Origin: Thermoanaerobaculia bacterium
Lineage (GTDB): Bacteria > Acidobacteriota > Thermoanaerobaculia > Multivoradales > UBA5704
Assembly: GCA_036271335.1 (NCBI GenBank)
Contig: DATBAW010000600.1
Coordinates: 5,635-69,634 of the forward strand
Length of the DNA stretch: 64,000 nt
Reading direction: 5' to 3'
Shown piece by piece: positions 18,431 through 18,637 of this stretch; position 1 is the first letter of the stretch, and each line of letters begins with the position of its first letter. Both the position numbers and the translations under genes were made by a program. The notes beneath the pieces were generated by a model. It had not been told where the DNA came from. It did not search any database and worked only from the letters and a program-made list of their open reading frames with translations.

Positions 18431-18637
18431 CTAGTCGCACAGGCGCGGCGGGCAGGGGGTGCAGATCGCGGTGACGGAGCAGGCTTCCGTCGTCGCTCCG
18501 GCCACGGCCCGGAGCTCGTCCTCGCTGACCTCGATCATCGCCGCCGGATGGGACGGCAGGCTCGCGCGCTCGGCAGGGTTCAGGCTCAGGAAGTAGTCCT
18601 CGTCGCGGAACGCACGGGCCAGATCGATCTTCTTCAT
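18431..18637 (-). CDS. lanA: Class II lanthipeptide precursor (LanA), mersacidin/beta-peptide-type leader
   Basis: 68 aa from the ATG at 18637, preceded by AAGGAGA. Sequence: MKKIDLARAFRDEDYFLSLNPAERASLPSHPAAMIEVSEDELRAVAGA / TTEACSVTAICTPCPPRLCD. Leader ends in ELxxxxGA. The Ser/Thr/Cys-rich core has 5 Ser/Thr and 4 Cys. Lies 57 bp downstream of lanM on the same strand. Confidence 0.8.
   Translation of the reverse strand: MKKIDLARAFRDEDYFLSLNPAERASLPSHPAAMIEVSEDELRAVAGATTEACSVTAICTPCPPRLCD

What the first reader, a model, noticed from the sequence alone, without database searches (positions are those of the whole stretch)
18431..18637. Precursor peptide: mersacidin/beta-peptide-style leader and a compact 20-aa core TTEACSVTAICTPCPPRLCD
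The leader is MKKIDLARAFRDEDYFLSLNPAERASLPSHPAAMIEVSEDELRAVAGA. It follows the pattern known for class II leaders of the mersacidin/lichenicidin-beta type (aromatic-K/R-D-x-x-[YF]R, HPAG-like, E(L/V)sxxEL..vaG[GA]). This predicts cleavage after GA.

The core has 5 Ser/Thr (T1, T2, S7, T9, T12) and 4 Cys (C6, C11, C14, C19). Up to four, necessarily overlapping, thioether rings are therefore possible, leaving one residual dehydro residue.

An N-terminal Thr-Thr is reminiscent of beta-peptides, whose N-terminal Dhb becomes 2-oxobutyryl after leader removal. The C-terminal CTPCPPRLCD does not match the conserved CPTTKCT beta-peptide end. I recognise no characterised relative.
Basis: partly seen in the sequence, partly recalled or inferred. 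Interest (0 to 1): 0.7.

Follow-up and report, generated by a model that had tools for sequence, protein, structure and literature searches.

The report
Lanthipeptide precursor gene beside its synthetase
This is a real gene for a small peptide that the enzyme encoded next to it probably cross-links into sulfur-bridged rings; it is an uncharacterised but fairly ordinary member of a known family, and automatic pipelines already label its relatives correctly.

Summary
The ORF at 18431-18637 (-) is real. It has a Shine-Dalgarno site 6 nt before the ATG at 18637. Its 48-aa leader scores 55 bits against NCBIfam TIGR03898 (cut-off 23.5). It lies 57 nt downstream of a LanM gene scoring 892 bits.

Forty-nine related peptide clusters and about 25 related loci exist. 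Every one that carries an organism name is from Thermoanaerobaculia/Acidobacteriota. Only lanM-lanA is conserved between them, along with a stem-loop before lanA and a hairpin after it. No C39 exporter, immunity gene or second precursor lies in the 64 kb.

The core scaffold is [ST]T[ED]A-C-[ST]x[ST]Gx-C-[ST]-P-C-Pxxx-C-x. Three Cys are invariant and the fourth is near-invariant. The residues between them vary (dN/dS 0.64, against 0.20 for the leader). Ser/Thr is at least as numerous as Cys in all 49 cores, so up to four thioether rings are possible. The ring topology cannot be determined from sequence.

The closest characterised relatives are ThaA/TheA with ThaM/TheM of Thermoanaerobaculia (leader 38-49% identical; LanM N-terminus 40-45%), then roseocin. 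The closest solved structure is LicM2. The cores are unrelated.

Verdict: a new member of a known kind, of modest interest.

The parts
18431..18637 (-). lanA precursor gene: 68 codons plus stop. Leader is codons 1-48 (18494-18637), core is codons 49-68 (18434-18493), stop is 18431-18433.
   Evidence: TIGR03898 55.2 bits; 49 homolog clusters; dN/dS 0.20 for the leader and 0.64 for the core.
18644..18649 (-). Shine-Dalgarno site AAGGAG, 6 nt before the ATG at 18637.
   Evidence: Sequence. A GGAG-containing site at matching spacing is present in all 18 aligned loci.
18660..18682 (-). Conserved 9-bp stem-loop (CGGCGCGGG-AUGAU-CCCGCGCCG) between the lanM stop and the lanA ribosome-binding site. The ATG at 18673 lies in its loop.
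   Evidence: Centroid fold of the 63-nt intergenic stretch -21.4 kcal/mol; MFE -24.2 kcal/mol, z -2.98. 93% of cells paired across 18 loci against at most 52% for slid controls, with weak covariation. A copy precedes each of the three tandem lanA genes in L015.
18380..18414 (-). Strong hairpin 16 nt after the lanA stop, a probable transcription terminator. The T-run is poor in this copy.
   Evidence: The 76-nt stretch containing it folds at -42.1 kcal/mol, z -4.8. A GGGTGGGC...GCCCACCC hairpin plus T-run sits at the same place in most related loci. The consensus terminator scan did not call it.
18695..21907 (-). lanM, class II lanthipeptide synthetase, 1070 aa. Probable start is TTG at 21907, after AAGGAG at 21915-21920. 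The longer ORF reaching 22030 is probably not translated.
   Evidence: TIGR03897 891.9 bits; DUF4135 plus LANC_like. LicM2 (6ST5) 398 bits over nearly the full length. The start was placed by comparison with homologs of 1066-1069 aa that share the same SD-N7-TTG-GCC-GAG arrangement.
22010..22085 (-). A+T-rich patch upstream of lanM, a putative promoter region (inferred only).
   Evidence: Sequence. Comparable A+T-rich patches, several containing TAATAT, precede lanM in other loci where the flanks are otherwise unrelated. The sigma-70 consensus scan found nothing.

Best explanation
18431-18637 (-) is lanA, the structural gene of a single-component class II lanthipeptide. It is the second gene of a self-contained two-gene operon: putative promoter, lanM, stem-loop, SD, lanA, terminator hairpin.

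Proposed mechanism:
1. The 48-residue leader docks the precursor on the adjacent LanM.
2. The N-terminal kinase-like domain of LanM phosphorylates Ser/Thr of the 20-residue core and eliminates the phosphate, giving Dha/Dhb.
3. The C-terminal Zn-dependent LanC-like domain adds Cys thiols to these residues, forming up to four (methyl)lanthionine rings. The likely order is a first ring from Thr1 or Thr2 to Cys5, then rings that use Ser6, Thr8 and Thr12 with Cys11, Cys14 and Cys19.
4. The leader is probably removed after Gly47-Ala48 by a C39-peptidase ABC exporter encoded elsewhere in the genome.

Shown here: the gene, its translation start, leader family membership, the intact LanM next door, purifying selection, and the conserved Cys/Ser/Thr/Pro scaffold.

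Inferred: that modification happens, the number and topology of rings, the cleavage site, export, and the biological activity.
For: - **Leader and synthetase:** leader HMM hit above cut-off. LanM hits TIGR03897 at 892 bits and LicM2 at 398 bits.
- **LanM looks active:** by inspection its sequence keeps YKPRS, DMHHEN...VDLE, VRKT, GFSHG, WCHG and SLCHG. These are the motifs I take, from memory of the CylM and NisC literature, to be the kinase, elimination and Zn-ligand motifs.
- **Conserved pairing:** lanM followed by lanA is the only gene pair conserved across 21 loci whose flanks are largely unrelated.
- **Conserved core positions:** [ST]8, C11, [ST]12, P13, C14 and C19 are 49/49. C5 is 47/49. 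Position 1 is Ser/Thr in 44/49 and position 2 is Thr in 38/49. Ser/Thr is at least as numerous as Cys in 49/49.
- **Selection:** dN/dS is 0.20 for the leader and 0.64 for the core.
- **Module behaviour:** the stem-loop, SD, lanA and hairpin unit is triplicated in L015.
- **Experimental precedent:** in the related ThaA, ThaM dehydrates Ser2 and Thr6 of C1-S2-G-I-C5-T6 and forms two lanthionine rings. The window core has the same spacing at T2-E-A-C5-S6.
- **Relatedness to that system:** the first 400 residues of the window LanM are 44.5% identical to ThaM and 40.5% to TheM.
Against: - No biochemical evidence exists for this peptide or any close homolog.
- The 64-kb window has no C39 peptidase/ABC exporter, no LanFEG or LanI-type immunity genes and no regulator. 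None is conserved in related loci either. Cleavage and export are therefore unsupported.
- In ThaA only two of the Cys end up in thioethers and others stay free. Roseocin alpha carries a disulfide. Four rings is an upper bound.
- The consensus promoter and terminator scans found nothing.
Confidence: 0.85

Rival explanations
1. The peptide is only partly cross-linked. One to three thioether rings form, and the remaining Cys stay free or form a disulfide, for example Cys14-Cys19 across CPPRLC.
For: ThaM installs only two rings in ThaA and leaves free Cys. Roseocin alpha has four rings plus an essential disulfide. A more distant representative, P0112, keeps the CTPCPPxxC end with only three Cys.
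Against: Every core has enough Ser/Thr to pair with all its Cys. Two cores have exactly 4 Ser/Thr for 4 Cys, which would be an odd coincidence if some Cys were not meant for rings.
Confidence: 0.3
2. It is the beta component of a two-peptide lantibiotic, like lichenicidin, haloduracin or roseocin beta, and its alpha partner is encoded elsewhere.
For: The TTxxC N-terminus resembles roseocin beta TTWAC and, from memory, haloduracin beta TTWPC. The closest solved synthetase is LicM2.
Against: The window holds only one lanA and one lanM. Most related loci also carry one precursor. Where there are three (L015) or two (L026), all are of the same C[ST]PC type. The conserved CPTTKC-type beta end (recalled, not tested) is absent, and the peptide is much shorter than known beta peptides.
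Confidence: 0.07
3. It is a thiazole-containing lanthipeptide of the tha/the type, further tailored by a GMC-family oxidoreductase.
For: Same bacterial class, same leader family, and a LanM 40-45% identical over its N-terminus. More distant representatives combine a GGC junction with the same CTPCPP end.
Against: The junction here is AGA-TT, not GGC. No GMC oxidoreductase domain appears in any ORF scanned in the window. The GGC-type relative P0054 also lacks one nearby.
Confidence: 0.03
4. It is a chance ORF, or a decaying remnant that is no longer expressed.
For: The cluster lacks export and immunity genes. A repeat-rich, mobile-element-like insert lies directly downstream.
Against: HMM E-value of 5e-15. 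Leader dN/dS of 0.20. The SD, stem-loop and hairpin are conserved. LanM is full length with its catalytic motifs. An identical peptide occurs on two further metagenome contigs.
Confidence: 0.02

Closest known systems
ThaA/ThaM and TheA/TheM clusters of Thermoanaerobaculia (Nature 2026, PMC13083261)
   Same: Same bacterial class. Same TIGR03898-type leader: 38% (ThaA) and 49% (TheA) identity over the leader. The first 400 residues of LanM are 44.5% and 40.5% identical. The [ST]2-x-x-C5-[ST]6 spacing at the start of the core is shared with ThaA, where Ser2 and Thr6 were shown to be dehydrated.
   Different: The cores are otherwise unrelated (CSGICTYGGWPTCFCC and CGITSTKPAYCYSRDC... against TTEACSVTAICTPCPPRLCD). 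There is no GGC junction, no GMC oxidoreductase, and therefore no expected thiazole. The tha cluster has ABC-transporter-related genes and a C39 peptidase; this locus has none.
Roseocin family (RosA1/RosA2 with a single RosM; PMC10027976) and its homologs in Acidobacteria, Chloroflexi, myxobacteria and cyanobacteria
   Same: The leader pattern is the same: RAWKDxxYRxSLSxxERxxLPxNPAG.IELsdxEL..vaGG. Identity is 31-33% to RosA1/RosA2 and 56% to an Acidobacteria gp4 LanA listed in that paper. Ros-beta starts TTWAC and contains CSP. The LanM is of the CHG type.
   Different: Roseocin is a two-peptide system with cores of 33-34 residues. The window has one 20-residue core with a different Cys pattern. 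The leader here reads AFRD...HPAA rather than AWKD...NPAG.
Lichenicidin beta system (LicA2/LicM2; PDB 6ST5)
   Same: LicM2 is the best-matching solved structure: 398 bits over residues 182-1085, against 138 bits for CylM. Both precursors belong to TIGR03898. The N-terminal Thr-Thr of the core is shared (LicA2 sequence from memory).
   Different: Leader identity is only about 29%, using a sequence recalled from memory. There is no alpha partner, no second LanM and no CPTTKC-type C-terminus. The host is a diderm acidobacterium rather than a Bacillus.
Mersacidin-type lipid II binders (C-T-x-T-x-E-C motif; recalled from the literature)
   Same: C5-S6-V7-T8-A9-I10-C11 has the same Cys/Thr spacing as CTLTSEC. 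The leader family is the same.
   Different: The essential Glu position is hydrophobic (W/I/Y/F/L) in 47 of 49 family members. There is no LanD-type decarboxylase and no AviMeCys context.

Membership tests
[quoted passage not shown] | Score against the family HMM above the curated cut-off (23.5 bits) | tested here: met
   55.2 bits, E=5.1e-15, leader residues 6-48 matching model positions 2-44 of 44. All 39 aligned relatives also match.
Class II lanthipeptide precursor (LanA) | Encoded next to a LanM synthetase | tested here: met
   LanM ends 57 nt upstream on the same strand. The same arrangement is found in all 21 loci compared.
Class II lanthipeptide precursor (LanA) | [quoted passage not shown] | tested here: met
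   5 Ser/Thr and 4 Cys in 20 residues. Ser/Thr is at least as numerous as Cys in 49 of 49 family cores.
Class II lanthipeptide precursor (LanA) | Double-glycine-type (G-G/A/S) leader cleavage site | tested here: met
   G47-A48 in the window. GA or GG is present at the junction in nearly all relatives; a few read AG, GM or AA. Actual cleavage cannot be tested here.
Class II lanthipeptide precursor (LanA) | Dehydration and thioether ring formation in the product | not testable with these tools
   Needs co-expression and mass spectrometry or NMR.
LanM (TIGR03897) | HMM score above cut-off (304 bits), with DUF4135 plus LanC-like domains | tested here: met
   891.9 bits. PF13575 401 bits and PF05147 212 bits.
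LanM (TIGR03897) | Catalytic and Zn-ligand motifs intact (kinase Lys, DxHxxN...D, RxT; SHG, WCHG, CHG) | tested here: met
   YKPRS, DMHHENLIAVGEHPVLVDLE, VRKT, GFSHG, AWCHG and SLCHG are present and aligned with LicM2. The assignment of roles to these motifs is from memory of the CylM and NisC literature.
Two-component lantibiotic beta-peptide (lichenicidin/haloduracin/lacticin 3147 beta) | Co-encoded alpha-peptide, usually with a second LanM | tested here: not met
   A profile search of all six frames of the 64-kb window finds only one precursor, and there is only one LanM.
Two-component lantibiotic beta-peptide (lichenicidin/haloduracin/lacticin 3147 beta) | Conserved C-terminal CPTTKC-type motif | tested here: not met
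   The C-terminus is CTPCPPRLCD. The family consensus is C[ST]PCPxxxCx.
Mersacidin-like lipid II-binding peptides | Conserved Glu in the C-T-x-T-x-E-C ring | tested here: not met
   The equivalent position 10 is W/I/Y/F/L in 47 of 49 cores and never Glu.
tha/the-type thiazole lanthipeptides | GGC motif at the leader-core junction, plus a GMC-family oxidoreductase in the cluster | tested here: not met
   The junction is AGA-TT. No GMC_oxred domain was found in the window.
Complete lantibiotic gene cluster | LanT (C39 peptidase ABC exporter) and immunity genes (LanFEG/LanI) adjacent | tested here: not met
   None in the window and none conserved in related loci. The rest of the genome could not be searched.

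The most novel reading that the evidence does not exclude
The invariant end [ST]-x-x-C-[ST]-P-C-P-x-x-x-C defines an undescribed ring scaffold. Possibilities include a tight three-residue [ST]-P-C ring next to an [ST]xxC ring (a nisin A/B-like cage one residue shorter), or thioethers combined with a CPPxxC disulfide.

The two-gene cassette has no exporter or immunity genes, sits in a diderm bacterium, and is repeatedly found beside toxin-antitoxin genes. It may therefore make a peptide whose role is not classical antibiosis. It could be a protease inhibitor, as shown for ThaA, or an intracellular or defence-related effector.
Probability: 0.2. Interest if true: 0.55.

Novelty: new member of a known kind. 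Interest (0 to 1): 0.3.

Why it matters
The finding adds a well-delimited, conserved core family to the class II lanthipeptides. It comprises 49 clusters at 90% identity. Every genome locus that carries an organism name is from uncultured Thermoanaerobaculia/Acidobacteriota, and the same C-terminal motif recurs in more distant representatives.

The biosynthetic unit is unusually small at about 3.4 kb, with two genes, which makes it easy to synthesise and express. Only one class II system from this bacterial class has been characterised, and it produced new enzymology.

The compact, proline-rich, four-Cys core may give a rigid scaffold useful for peptide engineering. As it stands, the finding confirms what annotation pipelines already report, and no new principle is shown.

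Tried and rejected
- **Promoter and terminator scan, 17900-22500:** no hits. The hairpins were found by folding and comparison instead.
- **Pfam on the peptide:** no family.
- **PADLOC on LanM and seven neighbours:** no defence-system assignment, only weak ATPase-type hits for PilT. A defence-island reading is not supported.
- **Second precursor:** the six-frame profile search found none.
- **Exporter, protease or GMC oxidase:** Pfam scans of 36 ORFs (37 reading frames, two of them overlapping) across the window found none.
- **Conserved neighbour genes:** none beyond lanM across 21 loci. ECH, thiolase, PadR and MacB-like genes are shared only by a subset of closely related genomes.
- **Full-text search for CTPCPP, CSPCPP, ICTPCP and CSPCPR:** only an unrelated keratin paper.
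- **Actinopeptins (DUF6229 leaders):** a different leader family.
- **Rfam on the lanM-lanA region:** nothing for the intergenic stem-loop, only Acido-Lenti-1 copies downstream.
- **Ring topology from co-variation of Ser/Thr and Cys loss:** uninformative, because the Cys never drop out.
- **P0053:** a 2374-aa repeat protein in the representative search, judged a spurious low-complexity hit.

Full report
**1. The observation**

The minus strand of 18431-18637 reads MKKIDLARAFRDEDYFLSLNPAERASLPSHPAAMIEVSEDELRAVAGATTEACSVTAICTPCPPRLCD followed by a stop. The window is about 70% G+C. The ORF has G+C of 0.63/0.51/0.89 at codon positions 1/2/3, the signature of real genes here. AAGGAG lies 6 nt before the ATG at 18637.

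The peptide has no Pfam hit. [quoted passage not shown]

Only the residue numbers slip: the core has Cys 5, 11, 14 and 19 and Ser/Thr 1, 2, 6, 8 and 12.

**2. Surroundings**

A 1070-aa LanM ends 57 nt upstream on the same strand. It scores 891.9 bits against TIGR03897 and has DUF4135 plus LANC_like domains.

I place its start at TTG 21907, seven nucleotides after AAGGAG. Homologs are 1066-1069 aa and share the same SD-N7-TTG-GCC-GAG arrangement. The ORF extension to 22030 is specific to this window.

Its best solved relative is LicM2, at 398 bits over nearly the full length; CylM scores 138 bits. The sequence keeps YKPRS, DMHHEN...VDLE, VRKT, GFSHG, WCHG and SLCHG. From memory of the CylM and NisC literature, I take these to be the kinase, elimination and zinc-ligand motifs.

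The neighbouring genes are unrelated to lanthipeptide biosynthesis:
- a 178-aa protein with no family match
- VapBC
- PilT
- an EndoU-domain protein
- an NHL-repeat protein
- Tag glycosylase, on the other side

Pfam scans of 36 ORFs (37 reading frames, two of them overlapping) across the 64 kb found no C39 peptidase, LanT-type exporter, LanFEG, LanD or GMC oxidoreductase. A profile of the family searched against all six frames finds only this one precursor.

**3. Relatives**

The 5.8-billion-protein search returned 49 clusters with 59-100% identity. All come from metagenomes or MAGs. [quoted passage not shown]

The species-genome scan found 16 loci, all in Thermoanaerobaculia/Acidobacteriota MAGs, and some genomes carry two loci. 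In 21 loci compared, lanM followed by lanA is the only conserved gene pair, and the flanks are largely unrelated. Toxin-antitoxin genes are frequent neighbours (VapBC here and in L003; a HicB-like antitoxin in L022 and HicAB in L026), but PADLOC gives no defence assignment.

Locus L015 has three tandem lanA genes after one lanM.

**4. Conserved non-coding parts**

A 9-bp stem-loop at 18660-18682 lies between the lanM stop and the lanA SD. Across 18 loci, 93% of cells pair, against at most 52% when partners are slid. There are few compensatory changes, so this is mainly sequence conservation.

The alternative ATG at 18673 sits in the loop of this hairpin and is lost in loci whose loops read GATTA, GATCG or GATCA. 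This rules it out as the start.

A strong hairpin follows lanA at 18380-18414; the 76-nt stretch that contains it folds at -42 kcal/mol, z -4.8. Its GGGTGGGC...GCCCACCC equivalent, followed by a T-run, follows lanA in most loci.

In L015 each of the three lanA copies carries its own stem-loop, SD and 3' hairpin. The module is therefore tied to lanA. I infer that it yields a short, stable lanA transcript, but this is untested.

**5. Selection and core anatomy**

Nei-Gojobori estimates on ten gapless sequences give dN/dS of 0.20 for the leader and 0.64 for the core.

Conservation across the 49 unique cores:

| Core position(s) | Residue | Count |
|---|---|---|
| 8 | Ser/Thr | 49/49 |
| 11, 14, 19 | Cys | 49/49 |
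| 12 | Ser/Thr | 49/49 |
| 13 | Pro | 49/49 |
| 5 | Cys | 47/49 |
| 6 | Ser/Thr | 42/49 |
| 1 | Ser/Thr | 44/49 |
| 2 | Thr | 38/49 |
| 3 | Glu/Asp | 38/49 |
| 9 | Gly | 38/49 |
| 10 | W/I/Y/F/L | 47/49 |

Positions 15-18 and 20 vary. The Asp20 of this window is unique in the family. Every core has at least as many Ser/Thr as Cys, and two have exactly 4:4.

The profile search of 1.84 billion representatives found 1376 leader relatives at E<=1e-3. The end [ST]xxC[ST]PCPxxxC recurs in more distant representatives with AWRD or AWKD leaders, some of them with a GGC junction.

**6. Mechanism**

The best-supported reading is a standard class II pathway:
1. The leader guides binding to LanM.
2. LanM phosphorylates Ser/Thr and eliminates the phosphate.
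3. The Zn-dependent domain adds Cys to the resulting dehydro residues.

T1-T2-E-A-C5 fits the Dhx-Dhx-Xxx-Xxx-Cys motif, which in cytolysin gives rings of unusual stereochemistry. It also matches the TTWAC start of roseocin beta. ThaA, with S2-G-I-C5-T6, was shown to be dehydrated at Ser2 and Thr6 and to form two lanthionines.

Beyond the first ring the topology is open. One option is overlapping S6-C11, T8-C14 and T12-C19 rings. Another is small T8-C11 and T12-C14 rings with one large ring. Partial cyclisation with free or disulfide-bonded Cys is also possible; both occur in characterised relatives.

Cleavage after G47-A48 by a C39 exporter encoded elsewhere is inferred from the near-universal G-[GA] pair at the junction. 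The tha cluster does carry such a peptidase.

**7. Comparison with known systems**

- **Leader identity**: 56% to an Acidobacteria gp4 LanA, 49% to TheA, 38% to ThaA, 31-33% to RosA1/RosA2, about 29% to LicA2 and 17% to MrsA. The last two used sequences recalled from memory.
- **LanM N-terminal 400 residues:** 44.5% identical to ThaM and 40.5% to TheM.
- **Cores:** unrelated to all of these.
- **Mersacidin:** the essential Glu is absent.
- **Beta-peptides:** the beta-type C-terminus and an alpha partner are absent.
- **tha/the systems:** the GGC junction and the GMC oxidase are absent.
- **Literature:** no paper in the library contains the core motif.

**8. Verdict**

It belongs to a known family that annotation pipelines already recognise. 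Its compact core belongs to an uncharacterised, conserved acidobacterial subfamily encoded by a minimal two-gene cassette.

It is a new member of a known kind, and interest is modest. The chemistry (ring topology, possible small Pro-containing ring) and the missing export and immunity functions are the only open points.

Noticed in passing
window 18035-18351 and 48174-48291: The spacer directly after the lanA hairpin holds a 48-nt inverted repeat (arms 18094-18141 and 18247-18294, 98% complementary, 105 nt apart). Each arm matches Rfam RF01687 Acido-Lenti-1 'sRNA' (49 and 48 bits, gathering score 37), in opposite orientations. The element is flanked by direct repeats GCAAACAGCGTGCG (18035-18048 and 18338-18351) and by a 31-nt tandem duplication (18286-18347). 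A second convergent pair of RF01687 matches lies at 48174-48220 and 48244-48291. The paired, inverted arrangement suggests a MITE- or REP-like repeat rather than an sRNA gene.
   Followed up: partly
window 52433-63775 (-): A 3780-aa non-ribosomal peptide synthetase: 4 condensation, 3 adenylation and 3 carrier domains plus a thioesterase. It is a second, unrelated biosynthetic gene in the same window. Two tRNA genes lie just downstream of it, at 50875-50957 and 52210-52282.
   Followed up: no
window 30493-33414 (+) and 33479-36397 (+): Two tandem ORFs of 973 and 972 aa with strong coding signal (third-position GC 0.90-0.91) and no Pfam match. Their near-identical length suggests they may be paralogs, but this was not checked.
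   Followed up: no
window 37458-41120 (-): A 1220-aa protein combining ABC-2-type permease regions with an M1 peptidase domain, an unusual fusion about 19 kb from lanA. No link to the lanthipeptide was established.
   Followed up: no
window 13884-17248 (-): A run of conflict-type genes downstream of the cassette: an EndoU nuclease-domain protein (13884-14894), a PilT-family ATPase (15216-16502) and a VapBC pair (16556-17248). Related lanMA cassettes also sit beside VapBC, HicAB or a HicB-like antitoxin, Fic and SNF2/SMC-like genes. This agrees with a published report that class II lanthipeptide clusters co-localise with defence and addiction modules.
   Followed up: partly
window 21908-22030 (-): Compared with homologs, this window has about 110 extra nucleotides between the A+T-rich putative promoter patch and the lanM SD/TTG start. 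This creates a spurious in-frame 5' extension of the lanM ORF: a TTG at 22030 and an ATG at 21958.
   Followed up: partly
L015 7692-8523; L026 8001-8532: Related cassettes carry three (L015) or two (L026) tandem precursors after one LanM, with different N-terminal core halves but the same C[ST]PC...C end. One synthetase therefore appears to serve several substrates.
   Followed up: partly
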